DNA of 64,000 nt from Sphingobacteriaceae bacterium (GCA_947453445.1 CANGGP010000006.1:15999-79998), one strand, 5' to 3'. Shown: positions 1 through 11,571, counted from the stretch's first letter. Program-made: numbers and translations. The notes: generated by a model from the sequence alone, not told the origin.

Positions 1-1055
1 AACACTTTTCGTGGAGATTTATAATTACAAGTTACTTGGTCATTCTCTTTCACCTTCCGTATGCCTTCAAGTAAAATGTGATCTGTTGGCGATAATCCAT
101 CCTTAATCACATATAAATCGGGCATTTCAGCAGCTACACTAATTTCACGGGCATGAACACGTTTATCGCTATCAATGACATAAACATATTTTTTTTCCAG
201 AATTTCGAATGTTGATTTTTGAGGTATTAGCAGTGCATTTTTATACGCGATGGTCATTTGCACATTACCGGTTTCACCATGTCGCAATAAGGCTTCAGGG
301 TTTGGAAAAGTTGCCCGAAATGCGATATTGCCGGTTTCGTTATTAAAATCAGCTTCAATTGTTTTAACCGTTCCTGGATACTTAAACAATTGGTTGTTCG
401 CCATCAATAAATTTACCTTTATCAAATTCTCGTTGGTCACTTTAGCCTTGTAATTAAGATATTCGGTTTCAGGAACATTGAAGTAAACCCACATCTGGCT
501 GTTGTCAGACAATGTGGTTACTAAATCTCCCTCATTTAACATGCTTCCAAGTCTCACTTGAAAGTGATCCATGATGCCATCAAAGGGTGCTTTTATCTCC
601 GTGAATTGCAGATGGGTTTGGGCCAGCGACAATTCGGCCTCTGCCTTATCCAACTTGGCTTTTGCCAGTGCCAATTCATTTGGCGACACTACATTTTTGT
701 CGTACAGAAGTTTGGTGTTTTGGTATTCAATGTTTGCAAAATCGGCCTCAGCTTTGGCCTTTTGCGCTTCTGCCTTGTATATAAGGGGCATAATCTGAAA
801 CATCAATTGTCCCCTTTTTACACTTTGTCCTTCGTCAACATAAATGCTTTGCACGTATCCTTTTTCAAGGGCGCGTAATTCAATGTGTTGTATCGCCTTG
901 ATCTGACAAACGTAATTCCTTGTAACTATTGTATCAGCTAATAAAGCTGAAGTACTCACAAAATTCGTTTCGGTTTTTATTTCTTCCTTTTTTGGATTAC
1001 ATGCTGCAAATAAAAACACAGCAGATAAACTTAGAAAAACAATGGTTCTTCTCAT
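1..1055 (-). CDS. efflux RND transporter periplasmic adaptor (membrane fusion protein); C-terminus runs off the window start
   Basis: My reverse translation from the ATG at 1055 gives MRRTIVFLSLSAVFLFAACNPKK (lipoprotein-type signal), then IKAPFDGIMDHFQVRLGSMLNEGDLVTTLSDNSQMWVYFNVPE and GNIAFRATFPNPEALLRHGETGNV, which are typical MFP motifs. It is absent from the ORF track because it is open-ended. Confidence 0.8.
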   Translation of the reverse strand, partial: MRRTIVFLSLSAVFLFAACNPKKEEIKTETNFVSTSALLADTIVTRNYVCQIKAIQHIELRALEKGYVQSIYVDEGQSVKRGQLMFQIMPLIYKAEAQKAKAEADFANIEYQNTKLLYDKNVVSPNELALAKAKLDKAEAELSLAQTHLQFTEIKAPFDGIMDHFQVRLGSMLNEGDLVTTLSDNSQMWVYFNVPETEYLNYKAKVTNENLIKVNLLMANNQLFKYPGTVKTIEADFNNETGNIAFRATFPNPEALLRHGETGNVQMTIAYKNALLIPQKSTFEILEKKYVYVIDSDKRVHAREISVAAEMPDLYVIKDGLSPTDHILLEGIRKVKENDQVTCNYKSPRKV

Positions 1056-2257: not shown

Positions 2258-2938
2258 CTAATTTATAGCAATGGTTGAAAAAAGAAGTGTCAACAAAAAG
2301 TCAATTAACTTCTTATCATCCTGTTGCTTCGGAAAATCAGTCAAAGAAGGTAAGTTCTGTTTGAAAAAATTTTGTGAATGGGCAATTTCAATGATGGAGC
2401 TTGCCAAGGAATGTGGGTATTTGTACTTGGGATTATATTCTTTGATTAAAGCCGCGAAACTTTCACAAAGGTCTTTATAGGGCTTAAAAAGTCGGTCTTT
2501 ATTATCCTTTCCGATGTTACGGGTTAAATATGTTTTTGATCCTTCCCATATCACCAATTGATAAGCTTCTGTTTCGGTTAAGAAATCGTTTTGCTGCTGT
2601 GTTGGTTTGGGTTCTTCGGCAATGAGTTTAATGATGGTTTGTAATTTAATTTTTGGGTCGGTTACATTGTTCAAACCAATGAGTACTTTGTATTCAAGAA
2701 AACGCCAATACCAAGTAATGATGTAAACCAACAAGCGGTGTTTGTTCTCAAAATACCGATAAATACTGGCCTCTGTGGTATTTACTTCCTGTGCCAATTT
2801 TTTAAAAGTAAAATCTTCAAAACCAATTTTATTAATTAATAATAAGCCGTGCTTTACAATTTTTTTACCCAAAACCGAGTCTTCAGGATTTCGAAGAAAA
2901 AGCCGGTCATTCATTTTTATGCGCAAGTCCAAATCCAT
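2258..2938 (-). CDS. TetR/AcrR family transcriptional regulator
   Basis: N-terminal HTH region: GKKIVKHGLLLINKIGFEDFTFKKLAQEVNTTEASIYRYFENKHRLL. It is divergent from the exporter operon at 3047. Confidence 0.85.
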   Translation of the reverse strand: MDLDLRIKMNDRLFLRNPEDSVLGKKIVKHGLLLINKIGFEDFTFKKLAQEVNTTEASIYRYFENKHRLLVYIITWYWRFLEYKVLIGLNNVTDPKIKLQTIIKLIAEEPKPTQQQNDFLTETEAYQLVIWEGSKTYLTRNIGKDNKDRLFKPYKDLCESFAALIKEYNPKYKYPHSLASSIIEIAHSQNFFKQNLPSLTDFPKQQDDKKLIDFLLTLLFSTIAIN

Positions 2939-2990
2939 ATTCTCAATTTAAAGTACAAATATAATAAATAAATGCTAAACAATCATAAAT

Positions 2991-3005
2991 GATAGCTTTA
3001 CTATC
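2991..3005. promoter_or_regulatory. inverted repeat GATAG-N5-CTATC, candidate TetR operator
   Basis: Seen in the TetR/exporter divergent intergenic region, just upstream of the -7 box. The arms are short, so this is weak. Confidence 0.2.
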
Positions 3006-3022
3006 TTTGTAAATATTATTGC

Positions 3023-3030
3023 TATATTTG
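3023..3030 (+). promoter_or_regulatory. Bacteroidota -7 promoter box TATATTTG
   Basis: Matches the TAnnTTTG consensus, 16 nt upstream of the ATG at 3047. There is no clean TTTG -33 element at canonical spacing. Confidence 0.4.
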
Positions 3031-3046
3031 CAGAAACATTGAAACG

Positions 3047-5281
3047 ATGAAAAAATCTGCCTTACTTTTTAAATGGTTGTTTACCCAAAGGGCCATCATT
3101 TATAAAATATACTTATTGGCCCTTTTGCAAGGCGCCATGTATTTGGCCATTCCCTTAGGCATACAAGGCATCGTGACCTACATCATGGCCGGTAGTTTTT
3201 CGGCATCACTCATTTTATTGAGCTGCATAACCATTACCATTATTGTTTTTATTGCCTATTTTCAATTGTGGCAAATGCGCATCAACGAAACCTTAAACCA
3301 AAGCATCTTTGGTAATTTGACCTCAAAAGTGAATTTTCTTTTGAGTCGTTCAAGCGGATCGCAAGAGATGTTAACACAATTAAACAAATTTACCGAAGTG
3401 GTGATTTTGCAAAAAGGAATCAGTAAAATATTACTTGATTTTTCATTCTCAGTCATCAGTATCGTTTTTGGTTTATTTATTCTGCCTGCCTACAGCTCGT
3501 GGTTTTTTGTGTTCAGTATTGTTTTAAGTTTAAGTTTTTACTTTATCATTATTTATTATGGCAAAAAAGGCATCGACAGCAACATGGCTACTTCCAATCA
3601 AAAATACGACCTATTAGAATGGTTCCAAAAAAATGCCATTCATCCTCAAAAGGAATCAATCACAGCCGGTACCGACCATCATCTTGAAAAATATTTCACA
3701 GCGCGCAGCACCCACTTTTCAATTTTAGAAAAACAATTTAAAGGCATCATCATTTTCAAAATACTATTTATTGCGGCTCTTCTTTTTCTAGGCGCATTCT
3801 TGGTGCAAAGCGGTGATTTAAACATTGGCCAATTTATTGCCTCCGAAATCATCATCTTTCTTGTGATTAATGCGGTGGAAAAATTGGTGGGCAGCTTAAA
3901 CATTTGTTACGACATTGTTACAGCCTTGTATAAAATTGAAGGCATGTTCGAAGAGCAAAAAGACCTTTCTTTTATTTCAGAAGATACACTGCCACTTAAA
4001 AGCTTGGGTACAATATACAGCCACCCCTATTCCAAGAAAATTAAATTCTCATTATTGGCTTTGGGTTTTACTTTTCTTGTTATTTTATTCATGCCATGGA
4101 CGCAAAACATACGATCAACGGGCAAAGTAAGCACCTTAAACCCTGAAAACAGACCCCAAGAAATCAGTTCAAGAATAGCAGGACGTGTTGAAAAATGGTT
4201 TATTAAGGAAGGTGATTTTGTGCGTAAAAACGACACCATTGCCTTTATTTCTGAAATTAAAGACGAATATGTCGATCCGCAATTAATCAGTCGATCTGAG
4301 AAAATCATTCAATCAAAAGAAACCTCATTGTCATCTTATGAATCAAAGATAAGGGCTGTGAATTCTCAAATTGACGCCTTAAACAAAGCCTTGCTGCTGA
4401 AGATGGAACAAGCCAGAAATAAAATCCTCCAAAGCAAAATGAAAATTTTAACCGACAGCATTGATTGTCAGGTTGCCGCTAACAATTACAAAGTGGCCGA
4501 AGAACAATTAAAGCGTTATGATGATTTGATGGTGAAGGGTGTGATTTCAAAAACCGATTTAGAAAACCGTCGCGTTAAATTACAAGAAGCGCTTTCTAAA
4601 AAAACTTCGGCTGACAATAAATTTTTATCGGCAAAAAATGAATTGCTCAATGCTGAAATTGAATTAAACACCATACAGCAAGACTTCCAAGAGAAACTCA
4701 TGAAAGCGGAGTCGGATAAATTTTCGGCCTTGTCGCTTTTATATGAAGGCGAAGGATCATTAACCAAACTTCAAAACCAATTGGCCAATTACAGCATGCG
4801 TAAAGGATTTTATTATGTATTGGCGCCTCAGGATGGTAATATTGCCAAAACATATATTCAAGGTATTGGTGAAATTATTAAGGAAGGAACTGCACTTTGC
4901 GAAATTGTTCCAACACAAAATGAAAGAGCTGTTGAATTGTATGTAATGCCAATTGATTTGCCTTTGATTCAAAAAGGTCAGCGTGTGCAATTGCAATTCG
5001 ACGGCTGGCCTGCATTTGTTTTCTCGGGCTGGCCCGGTATCAGTTACGGCACTTATTCGGCAGAAATTGTGGCCTTCGACAGAACCGTTTCTGACAATGG
5101 TAAATTTAGGGTATTGGCGAAAAGTAGCGGTAAAGCATGGCCGGATGCCATTCAGCTGGGCAGTGGTGTGCAAGGATTTGCCCTCTTAAAAAATGTGCCT
5201 TTGATTTATGAATTGTGGCGAAAGGTAAATGGTTTTCCGCCTGAATATTATCAAACAAAAACCGAAACCAAATCGAAGTAA
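3047..5281 (+). CDS. fusion protein: ABC-exporter-type transmembrane domain (no ATPase domain) plus HlyD-family periplasmic adaptor
   Basis: Residues 1 to about 305 have six hydrophobic helices and an ABC type-1 exporter TMD pattern (LLALLQGAMYLAIPLGIQGIV; GDLNIGQFIASEIIIFLVINAVEKLVGSL). Then come a TM helix, the HlyD barrel/lipoyl motif (GRVEKWFIKEGDFVRKNDTIAFI), a long coiled coil and a C-terminal beta-barrel. Confidence 0.75.
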   Translation: MKKSALLFKWLFTQRAIIYKIYLLALLQGAMYLAIPLGIQGIVTYIMAGSFSASLILLSCITITIIVFIAYFQLWQMRINETLNQSIFGNLTSKVNFLLSRSSGSQEMLTQLNKFTEVVILQKGISKILLDFSFSVISIVFGLFILPAYSSWFFVFSIVLSLSFYFIIIYYGKKGIDSNMATSNQKYDLLEWFQKNAIHPQKESITAGTDHHLEKYFTARSTHFSILEKQFKGIIIFKILFIAALLFLGAFLVQSGDLNIGQFIASEIIIFLVINAVEKLVGSLNICYDIVTALYKIEGMFEEQKDLSFISEDTLPLKSLGTIYSHPYSKKIKFSLLALGFTFLVILFMPWTQNIRSTGKVSTLNPENRPQEISSRIAGRVEKWFIKEGDFVRKNDTIAFISEIKDEYVDPQLISRSEKIIQSKETSLSSYESKIRAVNSQIDALNKALLLKMEQARNKILQSKMKILTDSIDCQVAANNYKVAEEQLKRYDDLMVKGVISKTDLENRRVKLQEALSKKTSADNKFLSAKNELLNAEIELNTIQQDFQEKLMKAESDKFSALSLLYEGEGSLTKLQNQLANYSMRKGFYYVLAPQDGNIAKTYIQGIGEIIKEGTALCEIVPTQNERAVELYVMPIDLPLIQKGQRVQLQFDGWPAFVFSGWPGISYGTYSAEIVAFDRTVSDNGKFRVLAKSSGKAWPDAIQLGSGVQGFALLKNVPLIYELWRKVNGFPPEYYQTKTETKSK

Positions 5282-5292
5282 AATAAAAGTAT

Positions 5293-6687
5293 ATGTATAA
5301 ATTGTTTTTTTTCCTTCTTGTTGTAATTGCATCACAGGGTATTTCACAAAATACAGCATCAATTACTTACGATTTATTTTTATCGAATGTTTTGCAAAAC
5401 AATCCCCTTGCAAAAAGAGCAGAAAATGAAAAACAATATGGCGAAATGCAATTACGAGCGGCCAAAGGCAATTACGACCCGGTTTTGAGCGGTTCGTACG
5501 ACCAAAAACAATTTAATGGCACCAATTACTTTACCAATTTAAACAGTGAACTGAAGCAAGCCATTTTCACCTCACAATATTTAAAATTTGGTTATGACTA
5601 TGGCAATGGTAACTACATCAATCCCGAAAACAATTCGCTTGTACCCGGACAAGCCTATTTGGGCATAGAAGTAGGTTTATTACAAGGCATGCGCATTGAT
5701 AAACGGAGGGCCGAATTTTTAAAGTCGAAAGAATATGTCAACTACTATGAAGCTGAACAGCGCATTCAACTCAATGCCTTATTATTTGAATCCTCACAAA
5801 GGTATTTTGATTGGTTGTTTAATTTAAAACAATTGGCATTGAATCAATATTTTATGCAAATAGCCAAACAGCGATTAAATGGTATTGAGGCTCTGGCAGG
5901 GAGCGGCGAAAGACCAACGGTTGACACCATTGAAGCCGCTATATTTTACCAAGGCCGTTTATCGGATTTACAAAATGCGCTTATTGAAAACCAAAAAGTG
6001 AGTAATGATTTACTAGCCTTTAACTGGCAAAAGGATAGGGCTGCCGGTTTTAGTGAAAGCTTAAGCACAAACGACAGCTTGGATTTGTTTTTTAATAAAG
6101 CAAAAAAAATATTGACTGAGCAACTCTATCAAAATCAAACGACCAACCCTGTAATTACAAAATACAATTCGTTGCAAAAAGTTTTGGAAGTAGAGAATAG
6201 ACTTAAAAGAGAAATGATAAAACCCTTGTTAAATGTGAAGTACAATCTTTTGTCGAACAACGCTGTAACGGCATACCCCATGTTGTCGACCAACAATTAC
6301 AAAGTAGGCATGCAGTTATCTTTTCCTGTCTTTTTAAGAAATCCTTCAAATGCTTATAAAATGGCAAAAATTAATGCCAACAATAACCAATTAGAAGTAA
6401 TGAATAAATCAAACGAATTGTCGTTTAAAATACAGGCGCTCAAAAAAACAATGGGCATTTTAGCCGACCAGTTACAAAATGCCGAAAAAACGGCCAAGTA
6501 CAGCAAAATGCTTGAGGAGGCTGAAAAATTAAAATTCTTGAATGGCGAAAGCACTTTGTTTATGCTGAATACAAGAGAAAGTAAATGGTTGGAGTCGGAA
6601 ATAAAATTGGCGGAGTTTAAATTAAAATTTATCAAAACCTTGGTAAACCTCATTTATTTAAACGGTGATTTAAATTATGCCTTTTAA
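5293..6687 (+). CDS. TolC family outer-membrane efflux protein
   Basis: 464 aa with a signal peptide and a two-repeat helical/beta architecture typical of the OEP family. It starts 11 nt after the HlyD-fusion gene. Confidence 0.8.
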   Translation: MYKLFFFLLVVIASQGISQNTASITYDLFLSNVLQNNPLAKRAENEKQYGEMQLRAAKGNYDPVLSGSYDQKQFNGTNYFTNLNSELKQAIFTSQYLKFGYDYGNGNYINPENNSLVPGQAYLGIEVGLLQGMRIDKRRAEFLKSKEYVNYYEAEQRIQLNALLFESSQRYFDWLFNLKQLALNQYFMQIAKQRLNGIEALAGSGERPTVDTIEAAIFYQGRLSDLQNALIENQKVSNDLLAFNWQKDRAAGFSESLSTNDSLDLFFNKAKKILTEQLYQNQTTNPVITKYNSLQKVLEVENRLKREMIKPLLNVKYNLLSNNAVTAYPMLSTNNYKVGMQLSFPVFLRNPSNAYKMAKINANNNQLEVMNKSNELSFKIQALKKTMGILADQLQNAEKTAKYSKMLEEAEKLKFLNGESTLFMLNTRESKWLESEIKLAEFKLKFIKTLVNLIYLNGDLNYAF

Positions 6688-7329: not shown

Positions 7330-7707
7330 TTACTCCACCTCAATGTATTTAAAAGGCACTTCGGTCATTGATTCATAATCCTTGCCAACTTCCAACCACT
7401 CCTCATCATCTTGATCATAAATCCAATTAATATGGGTTTGGGCACCATTGTTCATCAAAACCTCGGTGTTTTTGAATAAATCCAATAAACACTTCGATGA
7501 ACTTGTATTAAAATATTCTAATTGTAAGGTGATTTCAAACTTTTTAGGATTTGTTTTACCAAAGGCTTCAACGGCATCCAAAAGATTTCTAAAGAATTCG
7601 ATTGTGTTTTCAGGAATACAACGCCCTTTCATTTCCAAAGTTCCTGCTTTTGGGTCGAGCAAGATAGAGGGTGTTTTGGCTGTGCCATGCACTAAATAAG
7701 CTTCCAT
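7330..7707 (-). CDS. DUF1987 / SiaC-like regulatory protein
   Basis: 125 aa. TPSILLDPKAGTLEMKGRCIPENTIEFF and LEYFNTSSSKCLLDLF match my recollection of the DUF1987 family. Confidence 0.65.
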   Translation of the reverse strand: MEAYLVHGTAKTPSILLDPKAGTLEMKGRCIPENTIEFFRNLLDAVEAFGKTNPKKFEITLQLEYFNTSSSKCLLDLFKNTEVLMNNGAQTHINWIYDQDDEEWLEVGKDYESMTEVPFKYIEVE

Positions 7708-7809
7708 AATCGTATCGCTTTATATTGTTATAAATATAAGGGCTTATAAAAATATTGTTTTTTTTCATTAATGCAAAGTGAAAAATTATACTTCTTTCAC
7801 TTTTTGCTA

Positions 7810-8268
7810 CTAAAGGGGATTAGAATGGTGAAAAACAGGGCTATTACTTATTTTTTTTGGTCGAATGCTTTGGTTTAGTCTTTTACGCATGTATTGCCAA
7901 TACGATTTGGTGTAATTTACAAAAACCTCTTCTCCTGCCATAATATTTCTTGATGCTACAATATAACAACGGTCTCCAAAAATAATATAATCGCTGTTGT
8001 TTTTGAGTCCTTTAACCCTTACAATGCCTGCAGCATCATTGGCGTAACGGGCCTTGTACTGTGGGGTGTGCATTGCATCGATGCACAAATCGGATCTTAA
8101 AAAAAACAAATATTGATCAACTTTATTGCGGGCTCTTCTGCGGTATTCGTTGTAGCCAATAATTTCGCCCCTGTACTCAATAATTTTACTGTCTTTTTTA
8201 ATGGCCTTGGTGGTAAACAAACCCTTCCCTGCTCCCGGTAATTTCGATTTTTTGACGATGAGTGCCAT
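7810..8268 (-). CDS. SET domain-containing protein (putative protein lysine methyltransferase)
   Basis: KSKLPGAGKGLFTTKAIKKDSKIIEYRGEII, RYANDAAG (in place of the RFxNHS motif) and GEEVFVNYTKSYW (ELxxDY-type post-SET tyrosine). Confidence 0.75.
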   Translation of the reverse strand: MALIVKKSKLPGAGKGLFTTKAIKKDSKIIEYRGEIIGYNEYRRRARNKVDQYLFFLRSDLCIDAMHTPQYKARYANDAAGIVRVKGLKNNSDYIIFGDRCYIVASRNIMAGEEVFVNYTKSYWQYMRKRLNQSIRPKKISNSPVFHHSNPL

Positions 8269-8434: not shown

Positions 8435-10732
8435 ATGAAGTTCTGCCTATACCTCTTTTGTATTGTTTGCTTTTGCTTGAAACTTGAGGATTCAAATGCA
8501 CAAAACAACAATTTATGCAAGTATGTAAACACCTTTATCGGCACAAAAAAAATGGGACATACTTTTCCCGGTGCCTGCGTACCTTTTGGCATGGTGCAAT
8601 TGAGTCCTGATACCGACACCTTACCATACCTCATCAACGGCAAATACAATGCTGATGTTTACCGTTATTGTGCCGGCTATCAGTATGATGACAAAAGTAT
8701 TATTGGCTTTAGTCATACGCATTTTAGTGGCACGGGTCATTCAGATTTAGGGGACTTTTTACTGATGCCCTCTACCGGCGCAGTGCATCTGAATCCCGGC
8801 ATTGCCGGCCTAAAAGGTAGTGGTTATCGTTCGGCCTTTAAGCATGAAAATGAAAAAACGCAGCCCGGTTATTACAGTGTTTTATTGGATGATCATCGCA
8901 TTCAAGCTGAGTTAACTGCCAGCGAAAGGGTTGGCTTTCACCGTTACACTTTTCCGAAGTCAGACTCGGCGCATATAGTGTTGGATTTAGGATACGGCTT
9001 ATACAATTACCCTGATAAAAGTGTTTGGTGTGTTGCCAGAATTGAAAACGACACATTGATTACCGGCTACAAGCAATGTGTTGGATGGGCCCGCACCAGA
9101 ACCCTATATTTTGCGATGGTTTTATCGAAACCCATGCGATCTTTTGGATCCAACAATCCCGCAAAAAAAGAAGTCTACAAAGGCTTTTGGCGAAAATTTG
9201 ATCAATCAACAAATTTCCCCGATTTGGCCGGTCGCGATTTAAAATTGTATATGGATTTTAAAACAGAGGCACAAGAAAGTATTCAAATTAAATTTGCCAT
9301 CTCGGCTGTAAGCATTGATGGTGCTTTGATGAATTTGAGTGCGGAAATTCCACATTTTAATTTTGAAAAAACCAAACAAGAAGCGCTCAACAAATGGGAG
9401 AAAGAACTCTCGAAAGTGAACATAGAAGCGGATGAAGAAGTGAAAACAAATTTTTACACCGCCATGTACCATGCCTTTATCTCTCCGAATATTTTTATGG
9501 ATGTGGATCAGCAATACAAAGGATTAGATTACAGAACACACCGTGCTGAAAATTTCACGAATTACAGCACCTTTTCTTTATGGGACACTTACCGCGCCTT
9601 GCATCCACTTTTTAATATTATACAAATTGAAAAAAACAAAAACATGGTGCAATCGATGATGGCGCATTATCATCAAAGTGCTTTACACATGCTGCCCATT
9701 TGGAGTCATTTCGGAAACGACAATTGGTGCATGAGCGGATACCATGCTACATCGGTGATTGCCGATGCGATTGTAAAAAACGGCACTTTGATGGATGCCA
9801 AAAATGCCTTGGATGCCTGTGTTCGGACCGCTGAAAAATCAGATTATGAAGGCATAGGTGATTACATGCGCTTGGGTTATGTGCCCATGGAAGCCTCACG
9901 CGTTTCGGTGTCGAATACATTGGAATATGCCTACGACGATTGGTGCATTGCACAATTGGCGAGGAAAGCAAACGACACTTTGGTATACAACAGATTTATG
10001 AATCGTTCAAAAAATTATACACATGTATTTGACACAAAAAGTGGATTTGTGAAAGCAAAAAATGCCCGCGGGGAATTCACAAAACAATTTGATGCTTTGA
10101 GCACAAGTAATCAAGGACTCATTGAAGGCAATGCGTGGAATTATAGTTTTTTTGTGCCACAAGACCCTGATCATTTAATCCAATTAATGGGCGGCAAAAA
10201 AAAGTTCAACAGCAAACTCGACAGTTTATTTAATATGTATTTGCCTGGTAAGTATTTTGCCGAAACCGAAGACATTACCCGCGAAGGTATTATTGGCACT
10301 TATGTTCACGGCAATGAGCCGGCACATCATGTGCCCTATTTGTATAATTTTTCTGGCGAAGCTTTTAAAACACAGGCCATTTTAAGAAAAATCATGAGCA
10401 ACCAATATCGTGCAAGTGCCGATGGCTTGGGTGGAAATGACGATTGCGGACAAATGAGTGCTTGGTATATCTTTAGTGCTTTGGGTTTTTATCCCTTTGC
10501 ACCGGCCTCAAACACCTATCAATTGGGAAGTCCTGTTGTGCAAAGTGCGATCATCCATTTAGAAAATGGCAAACAATTTAAAATTTTAGTCGAAAATCAA
10601 AGCGCAAAAAACATTTACGTAAAATCAGTTTATTTAAATGGACAATTGATGAGAGGCACCAACATATCGCATCAAGATATTATGCAAGGCGGCACGCTTA
10701 AATTCATCATGGATGAAAAGCCTTTTAAATAA
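8435..10732 (+). CDS. GH92 family alpha-mannosidase
   Basis: Signal peptide, then YVNTFIGTKKMGHTFPGACVPFGMVQLSPDT, GNEPAHHVPYLYN and GNDDCGQMSAWYIFSALGFYP, which are classic GH92 motifs. Confidence 0.9.
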   Translation: MKFCLYLFCIVCFCLKLEDSNAQNNNLCKYVNTFIGTKKMGHTFPGACVPFGMVQLSPDTDTLPYLINGKYNADVYRYCAGYQYDDKSIIGFSHTHFSGTGHSDLGDFLLMPSTGAVHLNPGIAGLKGSGYRSAFKHENEKTQPGYYSVLLDDHRIQAELTASERVGFHRYTFPKSDSAHIVLDLGYGLYNYPDKSVWCVARIENDTLITGYKQCVGWARTRTLYFAMVLSKPMRSFGSNNPAKKEVYKGFWRKFDQSTNFPDLAGRDLKLYMDFKTEAQESIQIKFAISAVSIDGALMNLSAEIPHFNFEKTKQEALNKWEKELSKVNIEADEEVKTNFYTAMYHAFISPNIFMDVDQQYKGLDYRTHRAENFTNYSTFSLWDTYRALHPLFNIIQIEKNKNMVQSMMAHYHQSALHMLPIWSHFGNDNWCMSGYHATSVIADAIVKNGTLMDAKNALDACVRTAEKSDYEGIGDYMRLGYVPMEASRVSVSNTLEYAYDDWCIAQLARKANDTLVYNRFMNRSKNYTHVFDTKSGFVKAKNARGEFTKQFDALSTSNQGLIEGNAWNYSFFVPQDPDHLIQLMGGKKKFNSKLDSLFNMYLPGKYFAETEDITREGIIGTYVHGNEPAHHVPYLYNFSGEAFKTQAILRKIMSNQYRASADGLGGNDDCGQMSAWYIFSALGFYPFAPASNTYQLGSPVVQSAIIHLENGKQFKILVENQSAKNIYVKSVYLNGQLMRGTNISHQDIMQGGTLKFIMDEKPFK

Positions 10733-10749: not shown

Positions 10750-11571
10750 TTAACAACCGCCTCCTCCGAGCGAAATACTAAATTCTTCCTGAACCGGAAC
10801 TCCTTGAGCGTTTTTAGCCATTTTCCAAGGTTGCATGGTTGAAATTACTCTTAATATGGCTTCATCTATTTTTTTGTCAGAAGAACTTCGAGTCAATTTT
10901 GCCATTATAATTTCTCCTTTGGTATTCACTGAAAATCGAACCGCGGCTTGCGCTATTTTATCAAAATTATTTTTACCCGGAAACGGTTTAACCAAATGTT
11001 CATTAAGATAATCGGAAAATTGAGTATAACCACCCGGCATCATGGCTTCTTCGTTGGGTATAACAGTCAAGGTGTATTCAGCCTCCTTAATGCCATTATC
11101 TTTATCGGCATTGCTGATCCATTCTTTGTATTTGAATTTTAACTTCACAATCATATCAGTGCCTAAATCAGCCTTTAACAAAAGCTCTTTTTGTTGTTTG
11201 TTTAAAGCGTGACCCGTACCAATGGCATTTTGGTATTGTCCATCACATTTAACAACAAGTTCAATACTTACATAATCAATTAAATTTTCGTAATCTGCAC
11301 GTGCATGCACGTAATTATCTTGCGCAAATAATGTGATATTTTCTTTAGCGCGGTTTATTTGTAGAAGGTCATTTATTTTGGTGTATGTTTTCGATTCTGC
11401 CCTAAAATTACGTTCAAAATCAGGCATTAACTCACAAACAAAACTCAAACCTACTATTTTATCATATTTCATTACCGGTGTATATCTGCCGGTATAATTC
11501 AATTTTTGATTTTGTGCGATTAGGCTGCTTAAGCTGTAAACAAAAAGAATGATGAGGAGAACATTTTTCAT
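10750..11571 (-). CDS. secreted hypothetical protein with a TonB-C-like C-terminal domain
   Basis: Signal peptide MKNVLLIILFVYSLSSLIAQ. The C-terminal VRFSVNTKGEIIMAKLTRSSSDKKIDEAILRVISTMQPWKMAKNAQGVPV resembles a TonB C-terminal fold. Confidence 0.55.
   Translation of the reverse strand: MKNVLLIILFVYSLSSLIAQNQKLNYTGRYTPVMKYDKIVGLSFVCELMPDFERNFRAESKTYTKINDLLQINRAKENITLFAQDNYVHARADYENLIDYVSIELVVKCDGQYQNAIGTGHALNKQQKELLLKADLGTDMIVKLKFKYKEWISNADKDNGIKEAEYTLTVIPNEEAMMPGGYTQFSDYLNEHLVKPFPGKNNFDKIAQAAVRFSVNTKGEIIMAKLTRSSSDKKIDEAILRVISTMQPWKMAKNAQGVPVQEEFSISLGGGGC

What the first reader, a model, noticed from the sequence alone, without database searches (positions are those of the whole stretch)
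2258..6687. ABC-exporter membrane domain with its ATPase replaced by a HlyD adaptor, next to TolC and TetR
The 744-aa protein begins with a six-helix ABC type-1 exporter transmembrane domain, up to the helix-6 region (GDLNIGQFIASEIIIFLVINAVEKLVGSLNICYDIVTALYKIEGMF). A nucleotide-binding domain would normally follow there. Instead the chain continues into a TM helix and a complete HlyD-type adaptor (lipoyl motif, long coiled coil, beta-barrel). A TolC-family gene follows 11 nt later and a TetR regulator is divergent. I see no Walker-A-containing ABC ATPase gene anywhere in the window. A type-I-secretion-like or efflux assembly whose inner-membrane component has no ATPase raises the question of how it is energised, or whether the membrane domain serves as a scaffold or sensor.
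Basis: partly seen in the sequence, partly recalled or inferred. Interest (0 to 1): 0.6.

Follow-up and report, generated by a model that had tools for sequence, protein, structure and literature searches.

The report
ABC exporter domain without ATPase, fused to adaptor
A freshwater Bacteroidota bacterium carries an efflux-pump gene in which the membrane part of an ABC exporter has lost its ATP-burning motor and is joined directly to the periplasmic adaptor that docks onto a TolC channel, so the pump must get its energy from something other than its own ATPase.

Summary
ORF 3047-5281 (744 aa) is a six-helix ABC type-1 exporter membrane domain (AF2 pLDDT 82.7; best folds PCAT1, ComA, HlyB). It runs straight into a seventh TM helix and an EmrA/HlyD-type adaptor. 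A TolC gene follows 11 nt later, and a divergent TetR gene faces it across a conserved palindromic operator. No ABC ATPase lies on the contig.

Relatives explain the origin. Other Bacteroidota carry a split module, tetR-abc(TMD+NBD)-hlyD-tolC. On a tree, the 25 fused forms make one clade (support 100) nested among 42 split forms, so the NBD was deleted once. The split relatives' NBDs are themselves degenerate. None of 141 representatives keeps all four canonical features (Walker A, signature, Walker-B Asp plus catalytic Glu, H-loop His).

The NBD-less membrane domain is under strong purifying selection (dN/dS 0.064). It keeps two family-specific polar residues in the TM cores, Q40 and E267 (61 of 61). 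I found no relocated or co-occurring ATPase.

Best reading, inferred and not shown: a TetR-controlled tripartite exporter that runs without ATP, probably on the proton gradient.

This scan flagged the same architecture before on other DNA (e1-908888). I found no description of it in the papers searched.

The parts
2258..2938 (-). TetR-family regulator gene (226 aa), divergent from the pump genes
   Evidence: ORF. TetR_N 33 bits, above the cut-off of 24. A homologous TetR is adjacent in nearly all fused loci and in several split loci.
2956..2963 (-). Putative -7 promoter box of tetR (reads TATATTTG on the minus strand)
   Evidence: Conserved block in the alignment of 17 intergenic regions; sequence read. 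That TAnnTTTG is the Bacteroidota -7 consensus is recalled, not tested.
2989..3007 (.). Putative TetR operator, a 19-bp palindrome. The family consensus has perfect 9+1+9 arms; the window copy has 6 of 9 arm pairs complementary.
   Evidence: Invariant columns TAG (2993-2995) and T.CTA (2999-3003) in 17 of 17 aligned intergenic regions; sequence. Binding is inferred.
3023..3030 (+). Putative -7 promoter box (TATATTTG) of the pump operon, 16 nt before the ATG
   Evidence: Near-invariant block; sequence. The consensus motif is recalled.
3047..5281 (+). Fusion gene, 744 aa: ABC exporter TMD, linker, seventh TM helix, periplasmic adaptor
   Evidence: A hundred and twenty database clusters at 67-100% identity have the same length.
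3047..3946 (+). Residues 1-300: six-helix ABC type-1 (type IV fold) exporter transmembrane domain with long cytoplasmic helical extensions
   Evidence: AF2 helices 15-47, 53-101, 106-149, 151-198, 205-254 and 260-299. Foldseek matches PCAT1, ComA and HlyB. Profile against PDB. dN/dS 0.064.
3845..3847 (+). Codon of Glu267 in TM6: invariant, family-specific carboxylate; candidate proton or cation site
   Evidence: E in 61 of 61 family TMDs. Asn at this position in ComA. F, M or V in three canonical exporters of the same genome. Codon checked. The role is inferred.
3947..4030 (+). Residues 301-328: deletion junction, made of the remnant of the TMD-NBD linker followed by the cytoplasmic N-terminus of the former HlyD
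   Evidence: Comparison with split relatives L031, L047, L039 and L049. Low pLDDT here.
4031..4090 (+). Residues 329-348: seventh TM helix, the adaptor's membrane anchor
   Evidence: Helix 329-348 in the full-length model. It is followed by the conserved PWTQ motif shared with split HlyD proteins.
4091..5278 (+). Residues 349-744: periplasmic adaptor with a lipoyl domain, two roughly 85-residue hairpin helices and a beta-barrel
   Evidence: Pfam HlyD_3, HlyD_D23 and Biotin_lipoyl_2. Helices 411-496 and 502-584 with pLDDT around 90. Best folds are EmrA 4tko at 4.3e-09 and HlyD 5c21 at 2.1e-06.
5293..6687 (+). TolC-family outer-membrane factor gene (464 aa)
   Evidence: OEP 76.3 bits with two stretches. 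A homologue follows the adaptor in nearly all fused and split loci.

Best explanation
The three genes encode a TetR-repressed, TolC-dependent tripartite exporter. Its inner-membrane component is an ABC type-1 exporter membrane domain that has lost its nucleotide-binding domain and become covalently joined to its EmrA/HlyD-type adaptor.

Shown by the calls:
- The ancestor was a split module, tetR-abc(TMD+NBD)-hlyD-tolC, common in Bacteroidota.
- One in-frame deletion removed the NBD and the start of hlyD.
- This happened once, essentially within one GTDB genus.
- The fused gene has since been kept under strong purifying selection in both halves.
- The NBD of the split relatives was already non-canonical at the signature, catalytic Glu, H-loop and Q-loop.

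Inferred:
- The membrane domains still dimerise and form the translocation path.
- The 1:1 fusion gives a hexameric adaptor ring on three TMD dimers under a TolC trimer.
- Transport is not driven by ATP hydrolysis but by the proton gradient. The invariant, unpaired Glu267 in TM6 (with Gln40 in TM1) is the candidate coupling site.
- This would make the pump work like EmrAB-TolC, with an ABC-fold membrane domain in place of the MFS transporter. It would be the natural counterpart of the NBD-less MsbA and LmrA constructs that transport on a pH gradient.
- The substrate is probably a small molecule sensed by the TetR protein. It is unknown.
For: Architecture.

Origin by deletion:
- Split relatives have an ABC protein of 540-600 or about 700 aa, then HlyD of about 455 aa, then TolC.
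- The junction maps to the end of the TMD linker and the HlyD N-terminus.
- The tree of 67 rows puts 25 of 25 fused forms in one clade (SH-aLRT 100), needs one change, and nests it among the split forms.

Distribution:
- In an even sample of the phylum, 92 of 401 genomes match. The window's own genome is the only fused form among the matches listed; 24 matches were not listed.
- In the window's own genus, 22 of 36 other genomes match. About 20 are fused, at 52-89% identity.

Selection:
- Fused TMD dN/dS has median 0.064 over 24 pairs, against 0.053 for HlyD.

Degenerate ancestral NBD:
- In 45 locus NBDs: full Walker A in 31, signature SGG in 0, catalytic Glu in 4, H-loop His in 2.
- In 141 database representatives, none has all four canonical features; 72 have none of them.
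- Four canonical exporters of the same genome score four of four.
- PF00005 scores are 43-75 bits for the nine relatives that hit the model, against 80-128 bits for most of the genome's own NBDs.

No partner ATPase.

Loss of NBD-facing constraint:
- Ten residues conserved in at least 90% of split forms but not of fused forms lie in the cytoplasmic loops: P100, L111, R114, F116, W192, E195, R198, F203, K204, Y216. F203 and K204 sit at the ICL2 apex.

Family-specific polar residues in the TM cores: Q40 and E267, 61 of 61.

Precedents, from passages read:
- MsbA without its NBD performs pH-gradient-dependent ethidium efflux and raises erythromycin IC50 (PMC4979069).
- SbmA/BacA are proton-driven, NBD-less, ABC-like TMDs that use a glutamate ladder. 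That paper also cites NBD-less LmrA (PMC8442886).

Regulation: conserved palindrome and divergent -7 boxes.
Against: - No transport, proton coupling or oligomer state has been measured or modelled. The complex predictor was unavailable.
- A single conserved Glu is weak evidence for proton coupling. It could bind a cationic substrate instead.
- The TMD evolves somewhat faster relative to HlyD in fused forms than in split forms. At HlyD identity 0.8-0.9, TMD identity is 0.749 against 0.846. dN/dS is 0.064 against 0.018. This would also fit a reduced role.
- Many fused-pair dS values exceed 1, so the dN/dS values are approximate.
- The split relatives' degenerate NBD is itself under purifying selection (median 0.036 over 8 pairs). 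It therefore still does something in them, and most keep the Walker A Lys (44 of 45), so slow hydrolysis cannot be excluded for them.
- The coupling loops are long and still present, unlike in SbmA, which lacks coupling helices (PMC8442886).
- A housekeeping NBD moonlighting in trans is not excluded.
- The full-length model is of low confidence (pLDDT 65.3).
Confidence: 0.5

Rival explanations
1. Scaffold or anchor. The membrane domain no longer transports. It serves as a multi-helix anchor, assembly platform or sensor for the adaptor-TolC duct. The duct would then act as a passive or facilitated outlet, or would serve another inner-membrane transporter.
For: - There is no energy module.
- The TMD is modestly relaxed relative to HlyD after the loss of the NBD.
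- NBD-facing loop residues are relaxed.
- The adaptor half is the better conserved one: 0.76 identity against 0.67.
Against: - A mere anchor would not keep dN/dS at 0.064 over 300 residues.
- It would not keep the invariant polar residues Q40 and E267 in the TM cores, or the TM6 motif shared with the split transporters.
- The adaptor already has its own TM anchor, residues 329-348.
- No second transporter gene is conserved beside the fused loci.
Confidence: 0.25
2. Split system. A separately encoded ABC ATPase docks on the retained cytoplasmic loops and drives the pump with ATP.
For: - The long intracellular helical extensions and loops are still present.
- The genome has six stand-alone NBD genes plus one contig-end fragment without an adjacent permease gene.
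Against: - The ancestral NBD was covalently attached and already degenerate.
- No family-type NBD is in the genome.
- The stand-alone NBDs without an adjacent permease are LptB and GldA equivalogs, or of LolD/MacB, FtsE or ABC-2 type, and one importer-type fragment at a contig end. These types pair with other TMD folds.
- Orthologues of the three unassigned ones are present in most genus genomes, whether or not those genomes have the fusion.
- Only 3 of 32 fused loci hold any NBD ORF nearby, each of a different kind.
- Residues at the loop apices that are conserved in split forms are not conserved in fused forms.
Confidence: 0.1
3. Relic. The fusion is a decaying, non-functional remnant of a pump that lost its motor.
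For: Loss of a domain normally considered essential.
Against: - Intact ORFs at 52-89% identity occur in about 20 genomes of the genus and in 29 ORFs of related loci.
- dN/dS is 0.05-0.06 in both halves.
- The operator, promoter boxes and TolC partner are conserved.
Confidence: 0.03

Closest known systems
Split Bacteroidota module tetR-abc-hlyD-tolC (for example Salibacter halophilus KCTC 52047, locus L047)
   Same: - Homologous TetR, TMD, adaptor and TolC in the same order.
- The same family-specific TM1 and TM6 motifs.
- The direct evolutionary source of the fusion.
   Different: The relatives keep a roughly 240-residue, non-canonical NBD and a separate hlyD gene. As far as my searches show, the family itself is uncharacterised. 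Its best NCBIfam match is the NHLP bacteriocin ABC model at 169 bits, against a cut-off of 853.
Type I secretion and PCAT exporters (HlyB/HlyD/TolC, PCAT1, ComA)
   Same: - Closest solved folds and sequence profiles for the TMD.
- HlyD-type adaptor with an N-terminal TM helix.
- TolC partner.
- The solved HlyB/D entry holds six HlyB chains. This would suit a 1:1 fusion if HlyD is also six, which is recalled.
   Different: - There is no NBD, so no ATP drive.
- No C39 or C39-like domain.
- No cargo gene with a secretion signal is evident.
- TetR control points to small-molecule efflux rather than protein secretion.
EmrAB-TolC (MFS-type, proton-driven tripartite pump)
   Same: - EmrA is the best structural match of the adaptor half, at 4.3e-09.
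- Long hairpin, an N-terminal TM anchor and no lipid anchor.
- The proposed energisation by the proton gradient.
   Different: The transporter is ABC-fold, not MFS. The transporter and adaptor form one polypeptide.
SbmA/BacA (SLiPT) and engineered NBD-less MsbA-MD and LmrA-MD
   Same: ABC-exporter-like membrane domains that work without an NBD on the proton gradient. Acidic residues are essential (passages of PMC8442886 and PMC4979069).
   Different: - SbmA is an importer with an extra TM0. It lacks coupling helices and has no adaptor or TolC.
- There was no SbmA_BacA Pfam hit here.
- MsbA-MD and LmrA-MD are laboratory truncations, whereas this is a natural, selected one.

Membership tests
ABC type-1 (type IV fold) exporter transmembrane domain, Pfam PF00664 | Score over the Pfam gathering cut-off (28 bits) | tested here: not met
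   The window protein scores 17.2 bits, and residues 1-320 score 24.1 bits. Seven of 10 relatives tested score 32-63 bits over the full model. Many database homologues carry a precomputed PF00664 hit.
ABC type-1 (type IV fold) exporter transmembrane domain, Pfam PF00664 | Six long TM helices extending into the cytoplasm, with a fold like solved exporters | tested here: met
   AF2 pLDDT 82.7 with six helices of 33-50 residues. Foldseek matches PCAT1, ComA, HlyB, TM287/288 and TmrAB at probability 1.00, with TM-score 0.6-0.78. The family profile hits ComA at 3.9e-16.
ABC transporter (ATP-driven, complete) | Nucleotide-binding domain with Walker A, Walker B, signature and H-loop, in the protein or the operon | tested here: not met
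   No PF00005 hit in the protein or on the contig. No family-type NBD in the genome.
ABC transporter (ATP-driven, complete) | Homodimerisation of the TMDs | not testable with these tools
HlyD/EmrA-type periplasmic adaptor | TM anchor, lipoyl domain, alpha-hairpin and beta-barrel | tested here: met
   Pfam HlyD_3 45.2 bits, HlyD_D23 32.2 bits, Biotin_lipoyl_2 25.6 bits. Model elements. EmrA and HlyD are the top folds. NCBIfam type_I_hlyD scores 76.5 bits, below its cut-off of 208.65.
Type I secretion system (protein secretion) | ATP-hydrolysing ABC component and a cognate secreted substrate | tested here: not met
   There is no NBD. No candidate cargo gene lies between or beside the three genes. 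The cargo was not searched for genome-wide.
TolC / outer membrane factor | Two OEP repeats | tested here: met
   PF02321 scores 76.3 bits with two stretches. NCBIfam TolC scores only 19 bits, against a cut-off of 225.
TetR-family repressor with divergent operator | N-terminal TetR HTH and a palindrome in the divergent intergenic region | tested here: met
   TetR_N 33 bits, above 24. A 19-bp palindrome is conserved in 17 intergenic regions. Binding was not tested.
SbmA/BacA (SLiPT) secondary transporters | SbmA_BacA sequence family, TM0, and absence of coupling helices | tested here: not met
   No such Pfam hit. There are six helices without a TM0, and long intracellular loops are retained. The protein may work like SbmA but is not a member.

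The most novel reading that the evidence does not exclude
A whole, large Bacteroidota family of T1SS/PCAT-derived exporters has given up ATP hydrolysis as its power source and runs its TolC-linked pumps on the proton gradient through the ABC-fold membrane domain. The family has 1440 representatives at E<=1e-30. Its homodimeric NBDs are degenerate at both sites. The window's clade is the end point, where the now dispensable NBD was deleted and the TMD was welded to its adaptor. This would be a natural, stepwise transition from primary to secondary active transport within one pump lineage.
Probability: 0.3. Interest if true: 0.85.

Novelty: new variant of a known kind. Interest (0 to 1): 0.72.

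Why it matters
ABC exporters are defined by their ATPase. Whether their membrane domains can work as secondary transporters has been argued from laboratory truncations (MsbA-MD, LmrA-MD) and from the distant SbmA/BacA family. Here nature has made the truncation itself, inside a tripartite pump, and has kept it under selection. The intermediate stage, an intact but catalytically degenerate NBD, is still alive in sister lineages.

That gives a matched set of natural proteins (split with a degenerate NBD, and fused without an NBD) in which to test three things:
- how an ABC-fold domain is energised without ATP hydrolysis;
- what the degenerate NBD does;
- what stoichiometry a transporter-adaptor fusion imposes.

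It also flags a mis-annotation. These genes are filed simply as 'HlyD family efflux transporter periplasmic adaptor subunit'.

Tried and rejected
Oligomer state is therefore untested.
- First dN/dS script: it timed out. I rewrote it on the existing alignment.
I corrected and resent it.
- Script 65: it stopped with an error after printing the junction rows I needed.
- Expression: no RNA holder was listed for the stretch. All nine holders are DNA runs of freshwater or lake metagenomes from three studies.
- Outgroup: L080, the most distant relative, was dropped from the tree because its HlyD match was too short. Seven other incomplete loci were dropped too, so the root is at the midpoint only.
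- N-terminal extension: the roughly 140-aa extension of the roughly 700-aa split forms has no Pfam hit. It aligns to the N-terminus of the LssB model only within a whole-protein match.
- Literature searches: plus a term search in the tripartite-pump review PMC8277102 (first 300,000 characters held), found no TMD-adaptor fusion and no doubly degenerate homodimeric exporter family. Searches found the SbmA, MsbA and LmrA precedents.
- Earlier-findings look-up by place found nothing.
- Pseudogene reading: rejected, see the rival explanations.

Full report
**Observation**

- a TetR-family gene at 2258-2938 on the minus strand;
- a 744-aa ORF at 3047-5281;
- a 464-aa TolC-family ORF at 5293-6687, 11 nt downstream.

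Pfam finds HlyD_3, HlyD_D23 and Biotin_lipoyl_2 in the C-terminal half of the 744-aa protein. It finds OEP in the next gene and TetR_N in the divergent one.

The N-terminal 320 residues score only 24.1 bits on ABC_membrane, under the cut-off of 28. The assignment nevertheless holds:
- The NCBIfam PrtD model aligns residues 16-305 to its TMD half only.
- A profile of 61 family TMDs (alignment A1) hits ComA at 3.9e-16, HlyB at 4.4e-12 and PCAT1 at 2.5e-11 over the whole domain.
- An AF2 model of residues 1-335 (pLDDT 82.7, pTM 0.74) shows six helices of 33-50 residues. Its best structural matches are PCAT1, ComA and HlyB, with TM-score 0.6-0.78 and at least 250 chains at E<=0.001.

The full-length model is weaker (pLDDT 65.3). 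It shows a seventh TM helix (329-348), lipoyl strands, two hairpin helices of about 85 residues (pLDDT around 90) and a beta-barrel. Its best folds are EmrA (4.3e-09) and HlyD.

No PF00005 match lies on the contig that holds the window; the genome has 45 on other contigs.

**Where it comes from**

A scan of species genomes returned 80 related loci. I classified their ORFs with the window's four domains.
- Twenty-nine ORFs, the window's included, carry TMD and HlyD in one frame (about 745-769 aa, or fragments).
- Forty-seven carry the TMD in an ABC protein of 540-600 aa, or of about 700 aa with an N-terminal extension. A separate HlyD of about 455 aa and a TolC follow.

In the cultured Salibacter halophilus the order is tetR, abc (583 aa), hlyD (460 aa), tolC (475 aa). 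Comparing junctions shows where the window protein was cut. It keeps the TMD up to the short linker after the last helix and then continues directly with the cytoplasmic N-terminus of HlyD.

A maximum-likelihood tree of 67 complete rows (TMD plus HlyD) was built; eight incomplete loci were dropped, including the most distant relative, L080. It puts all 25 fused forms in one clade with SH-aLRT 100. One change explains the distribution, and the clade is nested among the split forms. The root is at the midpoint only. The polarity (loss of the NBD) rests on 149 of the 150 best family representatives having an NBD.

**How widespread**

- The protein database holds at least 120 clusters at 90% identity with the same length and 67-100% identity. 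They are named, if at all, 'HlyD family efflux transporter periplasmic adaptor subunit' or similar.
- The TMD profile finds 1440 representatives at E<=1e-30. Only one of the best 150 is fused.
- In an even sample of the phylum, 92 of 401 genomes match. The window's own genome is the only fused form among the matches listed; 24 matches were not listed.
- In the window's own GTDB genus, 22 of 36 other genomes match. About 20 show the single-frame fused form at 52-89% identity, and one (G428) shows a split form.

The fusion is therefore a lineage-specific innovation inside a large split family.

The stretch is held in freshwater and lake metagenome runs of three studies. A 9,288-nt contig of the third study bridges the junction with 11 substitutions and no indel.

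**The ancestral NBD was already degenerate**

I aligned 45 NBDs from the split loci with four canonical TMD-NBD exporters of the window's own genome.

| Feature | Count in 45 locus NBDs |
|---|---|
| Full Walker A | 31 |
| Walker A Lys | 44 |
| Signature SGG | 0 (an LSG shifted by one column in about 11) |
| Asp at the Walker-B position | 18 (Glu in 25) |
| Catalytic Glu | 4 (Asp in 34) |
| H-loop His | 2 |
| Q-loop Gln | 2 |

In 141 NBDs of the best database representatives, none has all four canonical features: 72 have none, 56 have one and 13 have two. The four controls have all four.

PF00005 scores are 43-75 bits for the nine relatives that hit the model, against 80-128 bits for most of the genome's own NBDs. 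L080, whose record title names a gammaproteobacterial family, has no PF00005 hit at all.

Each locus has one ABC gene. Both ATP sites of a homodimer would therefore be degenerate; that the proteins form homodimers is inferred. These NBDs are still under purifying selection (median dN/dS 0.036 over 8 pairs). They retain some role, perhaps nucleotide binding, but this is not known.

**Is the NBD-less membrane domain still functional?**

Yes, by selection.
- Median dN/dS is 0.064 for the TMD and 0.053 for HlyD over 24 fused pairs. Many dS values exceed 1, so these are approximate.
- Mean identity among fused forms is 0.67 for the TMD and 0.76 for HlyD.
- The TMD is somewhat more relaxed than in split forms: dN/dS 0.018 there, and lower TMD identity at equal HlyD identity.

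The relaxation is concentrated where an NBD would sit. Fourteen residues are conserved in at least 90% of 42 split rows but not in 25 fused rows. Ten of them lie in the cytoplasmic loop regions (P100, L111, R114, F116, W192, E195, R198, F203, K204, Y216). F203 and K204 are at the apex of the second loop in the model. That these contact the NBD is inferred from the general architecture of ABC exporters.

Ten positions are invariant in all 61 TMDs. The only polar ones inside TM cores are Q40 (TM1) and E267 (TM6), at similar depth near the periplasmic side. ComA has Asn at the E267 position. Three canonical exporters of the same genome have F, M or V there.

**Is there an ATPase elsewhere?**

- An HMM of the family NBD finds in the window's genome only canonical TMD-NBD exporters (148-180 bits) and generic stand-alone NBDs (100 bits or less). 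True family members score 288-356 bits.
- The TMD has no paralogue in the genome.
- Among the stand-alone NBD genes, those with an adjacent permease belong to Mla (two complete copies and a fragment beside an MlaD gene), Pst, MacB-type (two copies), ABC-2 (two copies), Nos and FecCD systems. SufC and an ABC-F protein account for two more.
- Six stand-alone NBD genes and one contig-end fragment lack an adjacent permease:
  - an LptB equivalog and a GldA equivalog;
  - LolD-like, MacB/LolD-like and FtsE-like proteins;
  - a weak ABC-2-type protein;
  - an importer-type fragment at a contig end.
  None is of the exporter type.
- Orthologues of the three unassigned ones are present in most genomes of the genus. 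At the E-value cut-offs, 41, 39 and 41 of 41 genomes match, the window's genome included. By my reading of the rows that is about 36, 38 and 39 of the 40 others. These include genomes that lack the fusion, so none co-occurs with it.
- Only 3 of 32 fused loci have any NBD ORF in the held flanks, each of a different kind.

A housekeeping NBD acting in trans is not excluded.

**Regulation**

Seventeen aligned tetR-pump intergenic regions share a perfect-consensus 19-bp palindrome. The window copy is at 2989-3007, with 6 of 9 arm pairs complementary. It is flanked by two outward-facing TATATTTG boxes at 2956-2963 (minus strand) and 3023-3030 (plus strand). This is the usual layout of a TetR-repressed efflux operon. 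The -7 consensus is recalled.

**How it most likely works**

Shown: the architecture, the origin by a single deletion, selection on both halves, the degenerate ancestral NBD, and the absence of a detectable partner ATPase.

Inferred: the TMDs dimerise and form the substrate path. Six fusion chains build the adaptor ring under a TolC trimer; the solved HlyB/D entry holds six HlyB chains, and that it also holds six HlyD is recalled. Energy comes from the proton gradient, with E267 as the candidate coupling site.

Precedents, from passages I read:
- NBD-less MsbA mediates pH-gradient-dependent ethidium efflux and raises erythromycin IC50 from 0.004 to 0.094 uM. A triple carboxylate mutant is inactive (PMC4979069).
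- SbmA and BacA are proton-driven, ABC-like TMDs with an essential glutamate ladder. That paper also cites NBD-less LmrA (PMC8442886).

The adaptor's best structural match is EmrA, from a proton-driven tripartite pump. I put this reading at about 0.5.

Rival readings:
- scaffold or passive conduit, 0.25;
- trans-acting ATPase, 0.1;
- relic, 0.03.

**Comparison with the known, and novelty**

The protein is not a member of complete ABC transporters (no NBD), of T1SS in the strict sense (no ATPase and no evident cargo), or of SbmA/BacA (no sequence match, no TM0, loops retained). It is a member of the ABC exporter TMD fold and of the HlyD/EmrA adaptor family.

My literature searches and a term search of a comprehensive review (only its first 300,000 characters are held) found no transporter-adaptor fusion of this kind and no family of exporters with both sites degenerate. 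Supplements were not consulted.

This scan noted the same architecture earlier in another genome (e1-908888), with the same reading. I had reached mine before seeing it, and I tested the claims here. The new points, as far as that summary shows, are the family-wide degeneracy of the ancestral NBD, the genus-level restriction, the relaxed loop apices, the co-occurrence test and the operator.

I rate this a new variant of a known kind, with interest 0.72.

Noticed in passing
window 3-1055 (-): A 3'-open ORF encodes a lipoprotein-type HlyD_D23/HlyD_3 adaptor. It belongs to a second, separate efflux system that runs off the window start.
   Followed up: partly
L080:7950-12194: A MAG whose record title names Pseudohongiellaceae carries the same abc-hlyD-tolC module at 26% identity. 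Its NBD has no Walker A and no PF00005 hit at all, so the NBD has decayed further in a lineage outside Bacteroidota.
   Followed up: partly
L034, L053, L063 and similar loci (ABC proteins of about 700 aa): A subclade of the split family has a roughly 140-aa N-terminal extension with no Pfam hit. In L034 it aligns to the N-terminus of the LssB type I secretion model, so it may be a C39-like domain. This subclade keeps an LSG remnant of the signature, and has Asp and Gln at the catalytic Glu and H-loop positions.
   Followed up: partly
window 7330-8268 (-): A SiaC-family regulatory phosphoprotein (125 aa) lies next to a small SET-domain protein (152 aa). A second SET-domain protein lies on contig C24 of the same genome.
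   Followed up: no
G000 contig C58, locus L096:3424-4065 (-): A 214-aa stand-alone ABC ATPase with only weak family matches sits directly after lpxC/fabZ and lpxA. It is single-copy in 38 of 40 other genomes of the genus. Its permease partner is unknown.
   Followed up: partly
window 8435-10732 (+) and 10750-11571 (-): A GH92 glycoside hydrolase (559.8 bits) and a TonB-C-like protein. Both are ordinary Bacteroidota genes unrelated to the pump.
   Followed up: no
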